15,612 bases of DNA from a virus (lineage: Duplodnaviria > Heunggongvirae > Uroviricota > Caudoviricetes). The notes under the pieces are model-generated. The model had not been told where the DNA came from, ran no database searches, and saw only the letters and a list, made by a program, of their open reading frames with translations. The stretch lies in the IMG/VR virus record IMGVR_UViG_2778261247_000017; one strand, given 5' to 3'. A program made the translations under genes and the position numbers. Positions 1,453-15,612 of this stretch are shown here, piece by piece. Numbering within the stretch: position 1 is the stretch's first letter; every line of letters begins with the position of its first letter.

Positions 1453-1468
1453 TGGTGCGATAATAGGA
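1453..1468. other. att-like core: reverse complement of a tRNA-Thr (thrW-type) 3' end, one base short
   Basis: tggtgcgataatagga matches TGGTGCCGATAATAGGA (reverse complement of TCCTATTATCGGCACCA, my recollection of the thrW 3' end) at 16 of 17 positions. It lies about 155 bp upstream of the truncated integrase start, where an att core is expected. Confidence 0.35.
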
Positions 1469-2152
1469 ACAAAACATAAATAACAAACGCATTGATATTT
1501 AATGGTATTTTTATATTCCATTTTTATAGATACCCCCAAAAGTACCCCCAACTAATTTTCCATTGTCCTAAATTGTGCAAAAAAACGACTCTATTGTACT
1601 ATTTTTCTTCGGGTATCTGCCTCATCAACAATCAATGATGAAGCTGGTGGATGCACACGGGTAACACGTTATTGGAATCCCTATATCGACAGCACGCCCA
1701 CCAGCGTAACGCATTTTTTTAATTTCGCGGATGTAAAAATTTGACGAGGCGGGTAGTCACGAACAACTGGGTTACAGAGATTATACCCGCCACCACCTAT
1801 GTTGATGAGGGCAATTATTAGTTGATATATCCACGCTCGTTTTCGCTTAATAGCAGAGCGTGCACAAAATTTGCATATTTCTATCTGCATTCCTCTATCG
1901 ACACAGGAATATGAGATAGTGGACATGATGAAACAAATCTGTGCTGACATGTGAACATGTTTTCCCAGTAGGAATGATCTAAAGCAGTCCATGATGCGGC
2001 CCTGAAACGCAGAAGTTATTGAAGCCACTTTAAAATGGAGTAAAAATAGCTTATGGTTACCTTATATATTTAAAGAAAAAATAGGTATTGGAATAGTTTG
2101 GTAGAAAAGTTATGACAAAAACTGACAAATAAAAGCCCATAAAAATGAGCTT

Positions 2153-2752
2153 TTATTCCTCCTTATTATTTTTAGCGTTATCTTGTTTGTTTCGTAAGGT
2201 CATAAAAGTATTATACCAACTAGAAACACGAAATATAGCAAAAACGGCAGCTAACGCAGAGAATACTGAGTAAATAAATATAAAGTATGCAAAGAAGCTG
2301 AATGTTAACAGTACATACCTGTAAGCAACACCTAAATAATAATACATAAAGGCGTTATTTATGAGAATGCTACTATAGGCCTTGGTGACCAAGGCCGTTA
2401 TTATAGTTAACAACTGCAATAATATAAAATGAACAAAGGTTGCATTCACAGACATATAAGGGGAATATTCTACCTCTCCATTTTCACTTTCTTCATCTCC
2501 AGTTATTATTTTTTTGAAGGCCTCATCTCCAATAGCAATCCACATAGCAAAACCACCCAGTGAAAAACCCAAAAGGTTCGGCATTAACGACAGAATATCA
2601 TTCCACCACCCCTGATGAGACCAAGATGGATAAAGAATCACTGTCATAAAAAAAGCACACCAAAAATAGCGACTTTTAAATACAGCCCCAGCGCCACCAT
2701 AGATCTTCCAGTATCTAGCCATTGCACTGGTTGATTCTTTTACTTTACTCAT
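2153..2752 (-). CDS. polytopic inner-membrane protein (4-5 predicted TM helices), unknown family; distal gene of a two-gene AT-rich cassette
   Basis: 199-codon ORF whose ATG (2750-2752) overlaps the upstream stop in a TAATG junction. Hydrophobic stretches RYFWCAFFMTVILYPSW, LLGFSLGGFAMWIAIG, ATFVHFILLQLLTIITALV and VLLTFSFFAYFIFIYSVFSALAAVFAIF. Visibly AT-rich. Confidence 0.7.
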   Translation of the reverse strand: MSKVKESTSAMARYWKIYGGAGAVFKSRYFWCAFFMTVILYPSWSHQGWWNDILSLMPNLLGFSLGGFAMWIAIGDEAFKKIITGDEESENGEVEYSPYMSVNATFVHFILLQLLTIITALVTKAYSSILINNAFMYYYLGVAYRYVLLTFSFFAYFIFIYSVFSALAAVFAIFRVSSWYNTFMTLRNKQDNAKNNKEE

Positions 2753-3645
2753 TACTTTCTCAGAAGCCTCTTAAACTCATCTGCTAAAGATTTTGCTCTT
2801 AATAACAATAGCTCAGTAACTGATGTTACGTCAGAATCATATGATTCAACCCTTTGAAGTGGTAAATCGCTTGAGGCATGAACCTCAACTAATCCCGCCT
2901 CATTAATCCTACGTATGCTAACTTCGCCATTTCTCGAAGCAATAAGAGCATCCTGCTTTAACTCACTATCAGGTTTAATTTCCTGACCACGCTCAGATTT
3001 ATATGTTTTATCTTCTTCAATAACGCCAATACGTTTGAAACGCTTTTGCATAATACTTTCTGCAGAAGCGAGATCATCTGGGTTAGGACGTCGAGTAACC
3101 ATATTTATACACGTAATGCCTTTTAAAGAAAGCATACGTTCTACGTTATCTGGCTCGGTTAATATTGTAACATTAATCTTCCCAAACTTCTCTATAATTC
3201 TCTCATGAGAAAATATTCCATTCAGAAAATTTTCTATTTGTTTTGATGTAAGATGCCGACCTTTGTCCTGCATCTCATAAACTAAAAGATGGCTGGCAGG
3301 TAGAAAAACAAAAGAGAATCGAGCCACATTTGGTTTTAAATTCTCAGGTATACTTATCCTTTCCTTTTGCTCATCTGAGGCAATGTCTTTCTTTACAATA
3401 TCGAACCAATCTCCATCAACATCAATATCTGTATACTTTAGAATTTCCCCTTCAAAAGGTTCACTAACTACCTGATCTTTCCTGTAAGGATAAAAGTGTG
3501 ACAAAGTCGCGAAAGAGTCCCCCCTCAAATTAACATTTCTCGCGTTTTTTCTTGCCATTCTGAACAATTCTACATATTTTTCTGGCGAGTGGGGATGCAT
3601 TGTTATATTCACCGCCCCATAAGTTAATTTTTTTGGTCTTGCCAT
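2752..3645 (-). CDS. 297-aa soluble protein of unknown family; proximal gene of the two-gene AT-rich cassette
   Basis: ATG at 3643-3645 with AAGGAAA upstream; charged, non-repetitive translation; no Walker A, HEPN or convincing nucleotidyltransferase motif seen by eye. Coupled to the membrane gene. Confidence 0.75.
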   Translation of the reverse strand: MARPKKLTYGAVNITMHPHSPEKYVELFRMARKNARNVNLRGDSFATLSHFYPYRKDQVVSEPFEGEILKYTDIDVDGDWFDIVKKDIASDEQKERISIPENLKPNVARFSFVFLPASHLLVYEMQDKGRHLTSKQIENFLNGIFSHERIIEKFGKINVTILTEPDNVERMLSLKGITCINMVTRRPNPDDLASAESIMQKRFKRIGVIEEDKTYKSERGQEIKPDSELKQDALIASRNGEVSIRRINEAGLVEVHASSDLPLQRVESYDSDVTSVTELLLLRAKSLADEFKRLLRK

Positions 3646-13568: not shown

Positions 13569-13585
13569 GGAATAGCGACCACTAT

Positions 13586-14299
13586 TTAACTTTTTGTTTT
13601 TTTTGGTCTTCTACCAATACGCTTCAGATGTTCAGGCCTTAAAATCAGATTCACAGCCCTAGCAACATTAGAACCCGCCCCCCTTTTTTTCAAATATTCA
13701 AGTACCTCATGCTCTGTCGGAGCCGTCTGTGGGTCATCTGGGTCATACGTCGACCATAGTTCCCTTATAGCATCCTGCACATACTCCAACCCATCACTCT
13801 TATGCCCATAAGTACACAAATACTCGTCAGGATTAATTACCTGATGAGATGATTCAATGATTGCTGGCGGATTAACTTCCTTAACAGGTATAGGGCGAGG
13901 GCATCTCGCAAAATCAACGCTCTCATTTTTTATCCACTCATATAAAGAATGGCGACTAATTAAAGTTTTATCCTTGCTTATCTCATATGCACGATCGGTC
14001 AGTTGTGCTGATGTCAGACGTTTGTACTCAATATCACAAACATTTCCCCAATTATCGTACTCAACTATTTCAGAGGTACATTCAACAGGAGTTAAGACAC
14101 CACGACGGATGGCTGTTACCATTCCATTAGCCAACCCCCATGCCATTTTCCAACGTTCATGTTTATTATCTCTGACATGTTCAAGAGTAGGGTAATCATA
14201 AGGATCAATTCCGGCCAACAATAAAGCGGCCTGGGTGATAGAAAACTCCTGTACTGTTCGCCAGTGGGATAAGTCAGGAATGTTTTCCACAATTGGCAT
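13586..14299 (-). CDS. hypothetical protein (237 aa), unknown family, between integrase and alpA
   Basis: The ORF-track start is TTG at 14314; ATG at 14297-14299 follows GGGGGAG. Protein-like acidic translation. Confidence 0.7.
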   Translation of the reverse strand: MPIVENIPDLSHWRTVQEFSITQAALLLAGIDPYDYPTLEHVRDNKHERWKMAWGLANGMVTAIRRGVLTPVECTSEIVEYDNWGNVCDIEYKRLTSAQLTDRAYEISKDKTLISRHSLYEWIKNESVDFARCPRPIPVKEVNPPAIIESSHQVINPDEYLCTYGHKSDGLEYVQDAIRELWSTYDPDDPQTAPTEHEVLEYLKKRGAGSNVARAVNLILRPEHLKRIGRRPKKTKS

Positions 14300-14397
14300 A
14301 TTCTCCCCCTTCAAGCGGTCTAATGTTAAGGCCGAGCCAGCTCTGTTTGCATCAGCCTTTTTAGGTGCTCAAAGTCTACTACTGTATACTCAACCAG

Positions 14398-15612
14398 TCA
14401 CCCGCATTTTCCGAACTCACCATGCACCACATTTCCGCCATGCTCGAGCGAATCCATATAGTCGGCATACCACTGGAGCATCTCTCGGCGACCATCCAGA
14501 TATTGCGCATGGTTGTATGTGCCACGAATTGAGTTTTTATCGACGTGTGCGAGCTGTGTCTCTATCCACGCGGTGTTATAGCCCTGCTCATGCAAAATGG
14601 TGCTCATGGTGTGCCGGAATCCATGACCAGTAACCTTTCCGTTATAGCCGATGCGTTTAAATACTTGGTTTATGCTAGCCTCGCTCATTGTTTTCCTTGG
14701 ATCATTACGGCCGGGAAACATAAGCGGATAATTGCCAGTTAATTCTTTAATCTGCCCAATAAGCGAAAGAGCCTGCTTAGACAAAGGCACCACATGAGGG
14801 CGACGCATTTTCATCCGTGAAGCAGGTATCTCCCAGATAGCCTTGTTGAGATCGATTTCATCCCATAATGCACCGCGCAGTTCGCCAGTCCGCAAACCGG
14901 TGATAATCAGTAGACGAGCCGCCATAACAACCAATGCACTTCCTGAGTAACTGGACAATGCCTTGAAAAAATCAGGTAATTCTTTGGCTGTGAGGAAAGG
15001 ATAATGATTAGATTCATGACCTTGCATCGCGCTGGTGAGATCCGGTGCAGGGTTATACTCAGCACGTCCAGTGACAATTGCATAGCGGAAAACTTCCCCG
15101 CATCGCTGCCTCACTTTTTTGGCTTTTTCGGTAGCACCGCGCCCCTCGATGCGCCGCAGCACATTCAGCAGTTCAAGTGGTTTGATTTCGGTGATTGGTT
15201 TTTTGCCAATGTAAGGGAACACATCTTTATTGAAGGCTTCGAGGATGTCTGAAGCATAACCAGCAGACCATTTTTTTAATTTGCTGCAGTGCCACTCAAG
15301 GGCAATATCTTTGAAGGTGTTGTTTAACTGCGTTTTCCGGGCAATCTTTTCCTCTCGTTTCGCTTCCATCGGATCGATACCCCCAGCGATACCCCTTTTA
15401 GCTTCTTCACGTTTTGCACGAGCATCAGCCAAGGTAACTTCAGGATACACACCTAGTGCTAACAGCTTCTCTTTACCAGCTACACGATACTTGAAGCGCC
15501 AATATTTTCCTCCACTAGGTTTTACCAAGAGATACAGACCACCACCATCAGCCAGCTTGTAAGCCTTCTCTTTTGGCTTGGCAGTGTCTATTTGACGGGC
15601 ATTGAGTTTCAC
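14398..15612 (-). CDS. int: P4-family tyrosine integrase (site-specific recombinase)
   Basis: 404 codons from a GTG at the window edge (the true start may lie just outside). N-terminal arm-binding-type region (LYLLVKPSGGKYWRFKYR) and a C-terminal catalytic region with conserved residues of this family (GLRTGELRGALWDEID, HGFRHT, LAHVD, GTYNHAQY). Confidence 0.9.
   Translation of the reverse strand: MKLNARQIDTAKPKEKAYKLADGGGLYLLVKPSGGKYWRFKYRVAGKEKLLALGVYPEVTLADARAKREEAKRGIAGGIDPMEAKREEKIARKTQLNNTFKDIALEWHCSKLKKWSAGYASDILEAFNKDVFPYIGKKPITEIKPLELLNVLRRIEGRGATEKAKKVRQRCGEVFRYAIVTGRAEYNPAPDLTSAMQGHESNHYPFLTAKELPDFFKALSSYSGSALVVMAARLLIITGLRTGELRGALWDEIDLNKAIWEIPASRMKMRRPHVVPLSKQALSLIGQIKELTGNYPLMFPGRNDPRKTMSEASINQVFKRIGYNGKVTGHGFRHTMSTILHEQGYNTAWIETQLAHVDKNSIRGTYNHAQYLDGRREMLQWYADYMDSLEHGGNVVHGEFGKCG

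What the first reader, a model, noticed from the sequence alone, without database searches (positions are those of the whole stretch)
1453..15612. Satellite with P4-type integrase, alpha-like initiator and iterons but no psu/sid/delta
The element combines P4 hallmarks (integrase family, AlpA/Vis, alpha-like helicase, TGTTCACC iterons) with a PICI-like layout (origin directly after the initiator, accessory cargo at the att-distal end). I recognise no capsid-size or polarity-suppression genes. It may represent a hybrid or distinct satellite lineage whose helper-exploitation mechanism is unknown.
Basis: partly seen in the sequence, partly recalled or inferred. Interest (0 to 1): 0.5.

Follow-up and report, generated by a model that had tools for sequence, protein, structure and literature searches.

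The report
E. coli PICI satellite at thrW
This is a roughly 14-kb phage-parasitic island of the already described Escherichia coli PICI family, so it is an ordinary member of a known kind, although how this subtype gets itself packaged by a helper phage is still unknown.

Summary
The window is E. coli DE17 chromosome. It carries a ~14.3-kb island at tRNA-Thr (thrW). The island has a P4-family integrase, AlpA, a helicase 50% identical to P4 alpha residues 304-776, and a cluster of TGTTCACC iterons (7 exact copies, 0.5 expected) directly 3' of that gene. Variable cargo sits at the att-distal end. I found no Psu, Sid, Delta, Epsilon, P4 CI RNA or P2/P4 cos.

This is not a hybrid or a new lineage. 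It has the backbone of the Gram-negative PICIs described in 2018. Its initiator is 88% identical over its full length to the Pri-Rep of the catalogued PICI EcCIRM13514, which has the same iterons in the same place. At least 13 genes have homologues in the experimentally studied EcCICFT073, in the same order. A characterised PICI, EcCIMP1, occupies the same thrW/vat site with a 96%-identical integrase.

The replication module occurs in 575 of 5,426 complete E. coli genomes. The element does lack EcCICFT073's RppA, lambda-type cosN and capsid genes, so its packaging route is unidentified. The cargo is a RexAB/CarolAnn-like DUF4747 plus membrane-protein pair.

Verdict: new member of a known kind, low to moderate interest.

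The parts
1453..1468 (.). att-distal copy of the thrW 3' end (TGGTGCGATAATAGGA), the left junction of the element
   Evidence: Alignment of both ends and sequence. The right copy, TGGTGCCGATAATAGGA, is the 3' end of tRNA-Thr about 170 nt beyond the window.
1469..1561 (.). att-distal arm with two TACCCCCAA arm-type repeats (starting at 1531 and 1543)
   Evidence: In L001 the 9-mer occurs only at the two ends of the element and in the duplicated int-upstream remnant. This stretch is 98% identical in EcCIMP1, which has the same integrase type.
2153..2752 (-). Cargo gene 2: 199-aa membrane protein with several hydrophobic segments, low GC
   Evidence: Hydropathy; GC 0.32-0.39; no family hit.
2752..3645 (-). 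Cargo gene 1: DUF4747 protein, the cytoplasmic partner of a RexA/RexB-like (CarolAnn/Sbash-type) exclusion pair
   Evidence: Pfam DUF4747 E 9.5e-98. Literature links DUF4747 plus a membrane partner to phage exclusion. Relatives carry GapS1 or a methyltransferase/DUF262/HEPN set at this position instead.
3978..4157 (-). 59-aa last conserved core ORF, after which the variable cargo begins
   Evidence: Conserved in relatives. Weak positional match to the last ORF of EcCICFT073.
4189..4416 (.). Array of five exact AAGTGTCAA repeats, including one inverted pair, in the intergenic region. Candidate protein-binding site (packaging site or operator).
   Evidence: 5 exact copies against 0.16 expected; no shuffle of 200 reached 5. 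Conserved in relatives L003 and L005. EcCIRM13514 has different repeat arrays in the same position.
4451..4987 (-). 178-aa protein (175 aa by RefSeq): N-terminal Xis/MerR/TerS-type winged HTH plus an alpha/beta C-terminal domain of unknown fold. It sits in the position RppA holds in EcCICFT073.
   Evidence: phrog_57 terminase small subunit E 1.7e-6 over residues 2-45. HTH_17. AlphaFold pLDDT 87.9. The only meaningful fold hits are Xis/BldC for the N-terminal domain. hhalign to RppA aligns only 29 HTH columns, probability 32%. Conserved as the last core gene in Dickeya elements.
5078..5350 (-). 90-aa ORF of unknown function
   Evidence: Annotated CDS; no family hits.
5347..5514 (-). 55-aa ORF of unknown function
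   Evidence: Annotated CDS; 62% identical to a small ORF in EcCIMP1.
5625..5912 (-). PerC-family regulator
   Evidence: Pfam PerC E 5e-32. 52% identical to the EcCICFT073 PerC. perC is listed as a PICI accessory gene.
5909..6439 (-). ProQ/FinO-domain protein (RefSeq calls it frameshifted)
   Evidence: Pfam ProQ E 1.2e-24; annotation; 55% identical to the EcCIRM13514 homologue.
6519..6854 (-). 111-aa hydrophobic ORF in a low-GC patch, not annotated in RefSeq
   Evidence: ORF list; hydropathy; GC 0.37; no family hit.
6883..7140 (-). SSB remnant (frameshifted)
   Evidence: phrog_44 SSB. 64-67% identical to the first 45 residues of the SSBs of EcCIRM13514 and EcCICFT073. RefSeq pseudogene.
7137..7337 (-). 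66-aa phrog_1231 protein, first gene after the ori
   Evidence: phrog_1231 E 1.6e-37; 86% identical to the gene after the ori in EcCICFT073.
7429..7660 (.). Replication origin: 7 exact and 3 near TGTTCACC iterons in two sets around an AT-rich spacer
   Evidence: About 80% DNA identity to parts of P4 crr and ori. The same iterons follow Pri-Rep in EcCIRM13514.
7668..9482 (-). Pri-Rep initiator: D5_N + DUF5906 (SF3 helicase) + Pox_D5 C-terminal DNA-binding domain, with no Zn-ribbon or Toprim primase domain
   Evidence: Pfam. 50% identical to P4 alpha 304-776, 88% to EcCIRM13514 Pri-Rep, 50.5% to EcCICFT073 Pri-Rep.
9479..10727 (-). Five small ORFs: DUF4222 (9479-9721), 9726-9926, 9919-10152, 10145-10528 and 10503-10727
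   Evidence: Pfam and PHROG hits. Homologues in the same order in EcCICFT073.
10720..10875 (-). Icd-like gene remnant
   Evidence: RefSeq annotation; phrog_6196 and phrog_1743; 74% identical to the EcCICFT073 Icd-like protein.
11273..11836 (+). Two opposite-strand small genes: YlcI/YnfO family (11273-11578) and a 66-aa ORF (11636-11836)
   Evidence: NCBIfam YlcI_YnfO_N E 5e-18; PHROGs. The same divergent pair exists in EcCICFT073.
12251..13051 (-). AntA/AntB-type antirepressor
   Evidence: Pfam AntA E 4.1e-22; phrog_5817 E 1.2e-40; 59% identical to the EcCIMP1 homologue.
13129..13326 (-). AlpA regulator
   Evidence: Pfam Phage_AlpA E 2.4e-19; 83% identical to EcCIMP1 AlpA; 37% to P4 Vis.
13586..14314 (-). 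242-aa conserved protein of unknown function between int and alpA (not Sid)
   Evidence: Family found across Enterobacterales and Pseudomonas. Model pLDDT 84, mixed alpha/beta. No PDB fold match. hhalign to Sid gives probability 0.3%.
14398..15612 (-). P4-family tyrosine integrase, thrW-specific
   Evidence: Pfam; 42% identical to P4 Int; 96% to EcCIMP1 Int; tRNA-Thr lies 167 nt upstream.

Best explanation
The region is a phage-inducible chromosomal island (PICI) of the Gram-negative, AlpA-regulated E. coli type. By the usual naming it would be 'EcCIDE17'. It is integrated into the 3' end of thrW, in tandem with the remnant of an older vat/MarR island.

Shown by sequence: intact att copies with arm-type repeats, int, alpA, a Pri-Rep initiator, and its iteron origin immediately 3' of the gene.

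Inferred from the experimentally studied relatives EcCICFT073 and EcCIMP1: a helper phage switches on alpA. AlpA then activates the leftward operon. Int excises the island. Pri-Rep binds the TGTTCACC iterons and replicates the circle. The copies are packaged into helper-made particles.

The genes after the ori are the candidates for helper manipulation. They are the phrog_1231 protein, ProQ/FinO, PerC, two small ORFs and the 178-aa winged-HTH protein with its adjacent AAGTGTCAA repeat array. None of them matches a known hijacking protein. The att-distal slot carries exchangeable anti-phage cargo, here a DUF4747 plus membrane protein RexAB-like pair.

In the SatelliteFinder scheme it would count as a 'Type C' PICI, meaning int + AlpA + primase only.
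For: - Location and ends.
- Core genes.
- Iterons.
- Pri-Rep 88% identical, with identical iterons, in the catalogued PICI EcCIRM13514.
- Colinear homologues of Icd, YlcI/YnfO, small ORFs, DUF4222, Pri-Rep, phrog_1231, SSB and PerC in EcCICFT073.
- EcCIMP1 at the same site with a 96%-identical Int and 83%-identical AlpA, mobilised by phage Kapi1.
- Defining PICI features from the paper.
- The core is 98% identical behind a different integrase at yicC-dinD in ABU 83972, which shows modular exchange.
- Cargo swapping in relatives.
- No phage structural or lysis genes.
- Type C definition.
Against: - No induction, replication or transfer data exist for this element. Function is inferred from relatives.
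- The SSB gene is a remnant, and RefSeq marks ProQ as frameshifted and the Icd-like gene as partial, so some decay has occurred.
- There is no recognisable packaging function. RppA, lambda cosN and capsid genes of EcCICFT073 are absent. There is no P2/P4 cos.
- The SatelliteFinder authors warn that Type C elements may be defective or may be other kinds of mobile element.
Confidence: 0.85

Rival explanations
1. A degenerate P4-like satellite that lost its psu-delta-sid operon, epsilon, the CI RNA immunity region and cos, leaving int, vis/alpA, a truncated alpha and the crr-like iterons.
For: Int is 42%, Vis 37% and alpha (residues 304-776) 50% identical to P4. The iteron octamer is identical to P4's, and parts of the ori region are about 80% identical at DNA level to P4 crr and ori. 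P4's crr also lies directly 3' of alpha.
Against: - Gene order differs from P4. In the P4 prophage int and alpha lie at opposite ends; here int, alpA and the rest form one co-oriented block.
- Only 3 of 14 P4 proteins have real matches.
- At least 13 genes match EcCICFT073 colinearly.
- The N-terminal 125-150 residues of the initiator are shared with PICI Pri-Reps over their full length, so they are not a truncation scar.
- The C4 and isrK RNAs found in P4 are absent here.
- The architecture is conserved in hundreds of genomes.
Confidence: 0.05
2. A decayed, no longer mobile genomic or defence island. It is a former satellite now retained only for its cargo and regulators (PerC, ProQ, DUF4747 pair).
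For: Pseudogenes or partial genes for SSB, ProQ and Icd. No identifiable packaging determinant. Type C elements may be defective.
Against: - int, alpA, pri-rep, the iteron array, both att copies and the arm repeats are intact.
- The same SSB and ProQ states occur in the 98%-identical ABU 83972 copy behind another integrase, so they predate a recent exchange.
- EcCIMP1 has the same formal 'Type C' status and was shown to be mobilised.
Confidence: 0.1

Closest known systems
EcCIRM13514 (E. coli O145:H28 RM13514; Gram-negative PICI catalogued in Fillol-Salom et al. 2018, Table S1 and Fig. S10)
   Same: Pri-Rep is 88% identical over the full length. The same TGTTCACC iterons (9 exact copies) lie directly 3' of the gene. 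Both have SSB, ProQ/FinO and PerC after the ori. Both have an ORF between int and alpA, an AntA/Rha-type gene, the divergent YlcI/YnfO gene and an Icd-like gene.
   Different: It has a different integrase (30% identity) and a different site (yicC-dinD). AlpA is 31% identical. Its SSB is intact. Its distal genes differ (a 143-aa protein with other repeat arrays). It has no DUF4747 cargo.
EcCICFT073 (prototype Gram-negative PICI; helpers lambda and phi80)
   Same: Colinear backbone with homologues of Icd (74%), small ORFs, DUF4222, Pri-Rep (50.5% over the full length, same domain set without Toprim), phrog_1231 (86%), SSB, PerC (52%) and YlcI/YnfO plus its neighbour. The ori lies immediately 3' of pri-rep.
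   Different: Its iterons are TGTCTACC-type. It carries capsid and decoration genes, RppA, and two exact lambda cosN sites. None of these is present in the window. Its integrase and site also differ.
EcCIMP1 (E. coli MP1; PICI mobilised by the P22-like phage Kapi1, PMC11773190)
   Same: Same thrW site next to the same MarR/vat island and int remnant. Int is 96%, AlpA 83%, AntA 59% and PerC 46% identical. Both lack recognised packaging genes and count as 'Type C'.
   Different: It has an unrelated primase (TOPRIM + DUF927, 918 aa), carries P22-like ejection-protein genes and has different cargo.
Satellite phage P4
   Same: Integrase family, Vis/AlpA, the helicase plus C-terminal DNA-binding part of alpha, the identical iteron octamer, and an iteron cluster directly 3' of the initiator (as in crr).
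   Different: The window element has no psu, sid, delta, epsilon, CI (C4) RNA or cos. It has no primase domain in the initiator, a single iteron cluster instead of ori plus crr about 4.5-5 kb apart, and a different gene order.

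Membership tests
Gram-negative PICI (EcCI type, Fillol-Salom et al. 2018) | Island of about 8-15 kb with its own integrase and specific att repeats | tested here: met
   14.3 kb between the att copies at 1453-1468 and the thrW 3' end. Int at 14398-15612.
Gram-negative PICI (EcCI type, Fillol-Salom et al. 2018) | AlpA-family regulator just downstream of int, with essentially unidirectional transcription | tested here: met
   AlpA E 2.4e-19. All annotated genes are on one strand except the YlcI/YnfO pair, as in EcCICFT073.
Gram-negative PICI (EcCI type, Fillol-Salom et al. 2018) | Pri-Rep initiator followed immediately by an ori made of two iteron sets around an AT-rich region | tested here: met
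   The Pri-Rep allele is 88% identical to a catalogued PICI allele with the same iterons.
Gram-negative PICI (EcCI type, Fillol-Salom et al. 2018) | No phage tail, lysis or full head-assembly genes | tested here: met
   Pfam scan of all 98 ORFs plus PHROG scans found none.
Gram-negative PICI (EcCI type, Fillol-Salom et al. 2018) | A recognised packaging or interference module (Rpp plus cos, TerS, or capsid-morphogenesis genes) | tested here: not met
   No RppA, capsid or decoration homologue. hhalign of the 178-aa family to RppA aligns only the HTH, probability 32%. No lambda cosN, whereas EcCICFT073 has two exact copies. The same gap is reported for the functional EcCIMP1.
Gram-negative PICI (EcCI type, Fillol-Salom et al. 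2018) | Helper-phage-dependent induction, replication, packaging and high-frequency transfer | not testable with these tools
   This needs experiments. It has been shown for the relatives EcCICFT073 and EcCIMP1 only.
P4-like satellite (seven SatelliteFinder core components) | psu-delta-sid operon | tested here: not met
   No Pfam hit in 98 ORFs. tblastn best E values were 0.015-0.3. The one weak Sid hit was rejected by profile, hhalign and fold tests.
P4-like satellite (seven SatelliteFinder core components) | Epsilon derepressor and CI (C4-family) immunity RNA | tested here: not met
   Epsilon best E was 2.2. No C4 or isrK hit at E up to 1 in the window, while both are detected in P4.
P4-like satellite (seven SatelliteFinder core components) | Integrase, AlpA/Vis and alpha primase-helicase | tested here: inconclusive
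   Int and AlpA are present. The alpha homology covers only the helicase and DNA-binding part, and the primase domains are absent. Gram-negative PICIs share the same three components.
P4-like satellite (seven SatelliteFinder core components) | P2/P4-type cos site | tested here: not met
   The 19-nt P4 cos end (confirmed at the start of the P4 record) has no match with up to 3 mismatches in the window. At up to 5 mismatches across the whole element there are only two weak matches, taken as chance.
Capsid-forming PICI (cfPICI) | Own capsid, portal, head-tail connector and large terminase genes | tested here: not met
   No such Pfam or PHROG hits in any ORF.
RexAB / CarolAnn-type two-gene exclusion system (applies to the cargo only) | Cytoplasmic DUF4747 protein encoded next to a multi-pass membrane protein | tested here: met
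   DUF4747 E 9.5e-98. The adjacent 199-aa protein has several hydrophobic segments. Literature. The defence phenotype was not tested, and PADLOC 2023 has no model that hits it.

The most novel reading that the evidence does not exclude
The 178-aa protein with a TerS/Xis/MerR-type winged HTH, together with the adjacent array of five AAGTGTCAA repeats (4189-4416), could be a previously undescribed packaging-redirection module. It would be the functional counterpart of RppA plus cosB in EcCICFT073, but for helpers that do not use lambda-type cos, for example P22-like pac phages. That would explain how the very abundant 'Type C' PICIs are mobilised. A second, smaller possibility concerns replication. 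This PICI allele and P4 use the same iteron octamer and have 50%-identical initiator helicase and DNA-binding regions, so they may cross-activate or interfere with each other's replication.
Probability: 0.15. Interest if true: 0.55.

Novelty: new member of a known kind. Interest (0 to 1): 0.25.

Why it matters
As a classification the finding adds little. The element belongs to the E. coli PICI family described in 2018. Its replication module is in about one in ten complete E. coli genomes. A sister element at the same locus has already been studied experimentally.

What remains open is shared with thousands of 'Type C' PICIs that SatelliteFinder sets aside: which helper they use and how they are packaged without Rpp, cos, TerS or capsid genes. 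This element offers a compact test case. It has a conserved HTH protein next to a repeat array in the position where EcCICFT073 has RppA and cos. It also illustrates satellites as carriers of exchangeable defence cargo, here a RexAB-like pair, in avian-pathogenic strains next to the vat toxin island.

Tried and rejected
1. Sid homology of the 242-aa ORF. A pairwise BLAST gave E 0.002 over 119 residues with similar protein lengths. It was rejected for three reasons. The family profile does not hit Sid (7jw1_E), although Sid is in the sequence library. hhalign gives probability 0.3%. The confident model is mixed alpha/beta and has no PDB fold match.

2. Rpp identity of the 178-aa protein. There was no sequence or profile hit to any PDB chain. 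Foldseek found only Xis/BldC-type hits for the small N-terminal domain. hhalign to RppA covers only 29 HTH columns. It is therefore not Rpp, though it is in the same fold class at the N-terminus and in the same position.

3. Lambda cosN and P2/P4 cos searches were negative in the window and across the full element, with positive controls in EcCICFT073 and P4.

4. Rfam: no real RNA family. The miRNA-precursor hits at 7473-7604 are far below threshold and reflect the inverted iterons.

5. PADLOC found no model for the cargo.

6. A second iteron cluster, like P4's separate ori, was sought. Only scattered one-mismatch copies were found. Two of them lie just upstream of alpA (13328, 13352), which is not convincing.

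7. The 512-aa ORF at 10720-12258 (-) is an artefact. It spans an Icd-like remnant and, on the other strand, real YlcI/YnfO-family genes.

8. The Dickeya homologue of the 178-aa protein has no comparable repeat array next to it, so the protein-array pairing is not universal.

Full report
**Where the window comes from.** The 15,612-nt window is 100% identical to Escherichia coli DE17 (duck isolate) chromosome positions 3,722,307-3,737,918, and 99.7% identical to APEC IMT5155. In the annotated record the region lies between the vat autotransporter/MarR island and tRNA-Thr (thrW)-proA.

**Boundaries.**
- The tRNA lies 167 nt beyond the right end of the window.
- Aligning the two ends shows a copy of the tRNA 3' end, TGGTG(C)CGATAATAGGA, at window 1453-1468.
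- Left of it lie a 112-codon remnant of a second P4-family integrase (960-1298, -) and a duplicate of the int-upstream region. The island is thus inserted in tandem in front of an older thrW island.
- The 9-mer TACCCCCAA occurs only at the two ends of the element and in that duplicated remnant. This is the pattern expected of integrase arm-type sites.
- The element is about 14.3 kb long.

**Checking the observation.**
- Integrase: 14398-15612 (-). It has the Arm-DNA-bind_3, Phage_int_M and Phage_integrase domains and is 42% identical to P4 Int.
- AlpA: 13129-13326 (-). Pfam Phage_AlpA E 2.4e-19; 37% identical to P4 Vis.
- Initiator: the 604-aa protein at 7668-9482 (-) has D5_N, DUF5906 and Pox_D5 domains. 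It is 50% identical to P4 alpha residues 304-776.
- Iterons: TGTTCACC occurs 8 times exactly in the window against 0.5 expected, and none of 200 shuffles reached 8. Seven exact and three one-mismatch copies lie in 7433-7653, starting 15 nt after the initiator's stop codon. They are arranged in both orientations as two sets around an AT-rich spacer. The P4 GenBank record annotates the same octamer as 'ori type 1 repeat' in both ori and crr. Parts of the cluster are about 80% identical at DNA level to P4 crr and ori.
- Cargo: low-GC genes occupy the att-distal end, 2153-3645.

**Absence of psu, sid and delta.** I tested this in four ways.
- A Pfam scan of all 98 ORFs of 40 codons or more between 1492 and 15612 returned no Psu, Ogr/Delta or capsid-related family at E up to 0.1.
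- tblastn of all 14 P4 proteins against the window matched only Int, alpha, Vis and a 26-residue stretch of the cI ORF at E below 0.001. Sid, Delta, Psu and Epsilon scored E 0.015 to 2.
- The single suggestive hit was Sid against the 242-aa ORF between int and alpA (pairwise E 0.002). It did not survive. A profile of 33 family members does not find Sid in the PDB sequence set, where Sid is present. hhalign gives probability 0.3%. A confident AlphaFold model (pLDDT 84) is a mixed alpha/beta protein with no significant PDB fold match.
- The P4 immunity RNAs (Rfam C4 and isrK) are detected in P4 but not in the window at E up to 1. The P2/P4 cos end has no match.

**What it is.** The architecture is that of the Gram-negative PICIs defined by Fillol-Salom et al. 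2018 (PMC6092414). Those elements have int, then alpA, unidirectional transcription, pri-rep followed immediately by an ori with two iteron sets around an AT-rich region, no phage structural genes, and accessory genes at the 3' end. That paper already states that only AlpA, Pri-Rep and Int of PICIs show homology to P4 proteins. Direct comparisons confirm membership.
- EcCIRM13514 is listed in the paper's Table S1 and used as one of four Pri-Rep allele representatives in Fig. S10. It encodes a Pri-Rep 88% identical to the window protein over all 604 residues. That gene is followed by nine exact TGTTCACC copies and then by SSB, ProQ/FinO and PerC.
- EcCICFT073 is the experimentally characterised prototype. 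It is colinear with the window. It has homologues of the Icd-like gene (74%), the divergent YlcI/YnfO pair (51% and 65%), small ORFs, DUF4222, Pri-Rep (50.5% over the full length), the first gene after the ori (86%), SSB and PerC (52%).
- EcCIMP1 is a PICI shown to be induced and transferred by phage Kapi1 (PMC11773190). It occupies the same thrW site next to the same MarR/vat island. Its Int is 96% and its AlpA 83% identical, and the att-distal arm is shared, but its primase and downstream genes are unrelated.

The family is modular.
- In ABU 83972 the core from window 3906 to 10875 is 98% identical. The antA stretch (11981-13133) is 93% identical. That copy sits behind a different integrase at yicC-dinD.
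- Relatives at thrW carry GapS1, or a methyltransferase/DUF262/HEPN set, in place of the cargo seen here.
- The replication module (window 7400-9482) is found over at least 80% of its length in 575 of 5,426 complete E. coli genomes.

- 'Origin directly after the initiator' does not separate PICIs from P4, because P4's crr also lies directly 3' of alpha. The real difference is that this element has one iteron cluster, whereas P4 has ori and crr several kilobases apart.
- The initiator is not a full alpha. P4 alpha has Zn-ribbon and Toprim primase domains in its first 300 residues. The window protein and the Pri-Reps of EcCIRM13514 and EcCICFT073 lack them and share a different N-terminal region of about 150 residues.

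**How it most likely works.**
- Shown by sequence: intact att sites, int, alpA, pri-rep and the iteron origin.
- Inferred from EcCICFT073 and EcCIMP1: a helper phage raises alpA expression. AlpA activates the operon. Int excises the island. Pri-Rep fires the origin. The DNA is packaged in helper particles.
- The AntA-type antirepressor may act on a helper repressor. This is inference only.

**Packaging is unresolved.** EcCICFT073 uses RppA, a winged-HTH protein that binds the helper's TerS and redirects it to the island's cos site (PMC6739421). The window has no RppA, capsid or decoration homologue. It also has no lambda cosN, whereas EcCICFT073 has two exact copies flanking rppA.

In the position RppA holds in EcCICFT073, the window encodes a 178-aa protein.
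- Its first 45 residues match terminase-small-subunit and excisionase HTH profiles.
- Its model (pLDDT 88) resembles Xis/BldC-type winged HTH domains at the N-terminus.
- Its C-terminal alpha/beta domain has no known relative, and hhalign to RppA aligns only the HTH.
- The family is widespread in Enterobacterales. In Dickeya it is again the last core gene before the variable cargo.
- Next to it lies an intergenic array of five exact AAGTGTCAA repeats (0.16 expected). The array is conserved in close relatives. EcCIRM13514 has other repeat arrays at the same position.

This is a reasonable lead for a packaging or regulatory site, but it is not evidence of function.

**Cargo.** The protein at 2752-3645 is a strong DUF4747 match (E 9.5e-98). 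It is followed by a 199-aa hydrophobic protein. DUF4747 proteins paired with membrane proteins are the RexA/RexB-like exclusion systems of phages Sbash and CarolAnn, with a weaker DUF4747 match reported for Butters gp30. The pair is listed as the 'DUF4747/CarolAnn' immune operon. PADLOC 2023 has no model that hits it.

**Rivals.**
- A decayed P4-like satellite is unlikely. The gene order is different, only three P4 proteins match, and the initiator's N-terminus is shared with PICI Pri-Reps rather than truncated.
- A dead island cannot be excluded. The SSB gene is a remnant and RefSeq flags the ProQ and Icd-like genes. However, the integration, regulation and replication parts are intact, and the same core has recently been exchanged between integration modules.

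**Verdict.** The 'hybrid or distinct lineage' interpretation is not supported, because this is a new member of the known E. coli PICI family. In SatelliteFinder terms it is a 'Type C' element with int, AlpA and primase only, a class that tool's authors found in thousands but set aside.

Noticed in passing
window 960-1298 (-), with 1-525 (+): A 112-codon N-terminal remnant of a second P4-family integrase (92% DNA identity to the live int) and a duplicate of the int-upstream region sit just outside the att copy. They are followed by a MarR-family regulator and, further left in the genome, a partial vat gene (missing its N-terminus) next to an IS66-family element. This is a tandem-island arrangement at thrW. 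The same arrangement is seen in E. coli MP1 next to EcCIMP1.
   Followed up: yes
window 2153-3645 (-): The cargo is a DUF4747 protein plus an adjacent multi-pass membrane protein, which is a RexAB / CarolAnn-Sbash-type exclusion pair. PADLOC 2023 does not recognise it. Relatives carry GapS1 or a methyltransferase/DUF262/HEPN set in the same slot.
   Followed up: partly
window 4189-4416: There are five exact AAGTGTCAA repeats (0.16 expected), one pair inverted, in the intergenic region between the 178-aa HTH gene and the 59-aa ORF. The array is conserved in ABU 83972 and K56-43-un relatives. EcCIRM13514 has different repeat arrays at the equivalent position. No comparable array lies next to the Dickeya homologue.
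   Followed up: partly
window 7668-9482 (-): The initiator, annotated 'primase-like' or 'DNA primase family', has no recognisable primase domain. P4 alpha has Zn_Ribbon_Prim and Toprim_3, but the window protein and the Pri-Reps of EcCICFT073 and EcCIRM13514 have only D5_N, DUF5906 and Pox_D5 plus an unassigned N-terminal region of about 150 residues. The EcCIMP1 and Dickeya elements instead use a TOPRIM-DUF927 primase.
   Followed up: partly
window 1531-1551; L001 21613-21665 (about window 15613-15665): The 9-mer TACCCCCAA occurs only at the two ends of the element and in the duplicated remnant. These are probably integrase arm-type binding sites. The att-distal 93 nt (1469-1561) are shared at 98% with EcCIMP1, which has the same integrase type.
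   Followed up: partly
window 10720-12258 (-): The longest ORF in this stretch (512 codons) is spurious. It runs through an Icd-like remnant and lies antisense to two real plus-strand genes: a YlcI/YnfO-family gene at 11273-11578 and a 66-aa ORF at 11636-11836. The same pair is present in EcCICFT073.
   Followed up: yes
window 6519-6854 (-): A 111-codon ORF encodes a very hydrophobic protein in a low-GC patch (0.37) between the SSB remnant and ProQ. RefSeq does not annotate it and it has no family hit. The segment is also present in the ABU 83972 copy.
   Followed up: no
window 5909-7140 (-): The SSB gene is reduced to a frameshifted remnant, although it keeps a C-terminal 'GIPF'-like tail. 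RefSeq flags the ProQ/FinO gene as frameshifted, yet a 176-codon ORF still contains the whole ProQ domain. The near-identical ABU 83972 copy shows the same states.
   Followed up: partly
window 13328-13359: Two one-mismatch iteron copies (TATTCACC and TGTACACC) lie immediately upstream of the alpA start. This recalls the position of P4's ori upstream of vis. One-mismatch copies occur about once per kilobase elsewhere, so this may be chance.
   Followed up: no
L003 (E. coli ABU 83972, yicC-dinD): The core from window 3906 to 10875 is 98% identical, and the antA stretch (11981-13133) 93% identical. This copy sits behind a different integrase, AlpA and int-adjacent ORF, and carries a different cargo gene (a 662-aa RNA-binding-domain protein). 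This is evidence of recent module exchange.
   Followed up: partly
window 7473-7604 (-): Rfam E-value mode reports plant miRNA-precursor families here, far below their thresholds. The cause is the long imperfect hairpin potential created by the inverted iterons, not an RNA gene.
   Followed up: yes
L009-L011 (Dickeya dadantii 3937 and metagenome contigs): Homologues of the 178-aa HTH protein end the conserved part of int-AlpA-AntA-primase islands in other genera. Variable cargo follows, for example a 1,655-aa NACHT protein. A conserved 564-aa protein with no family assignment precedes it.
   Followed up: no
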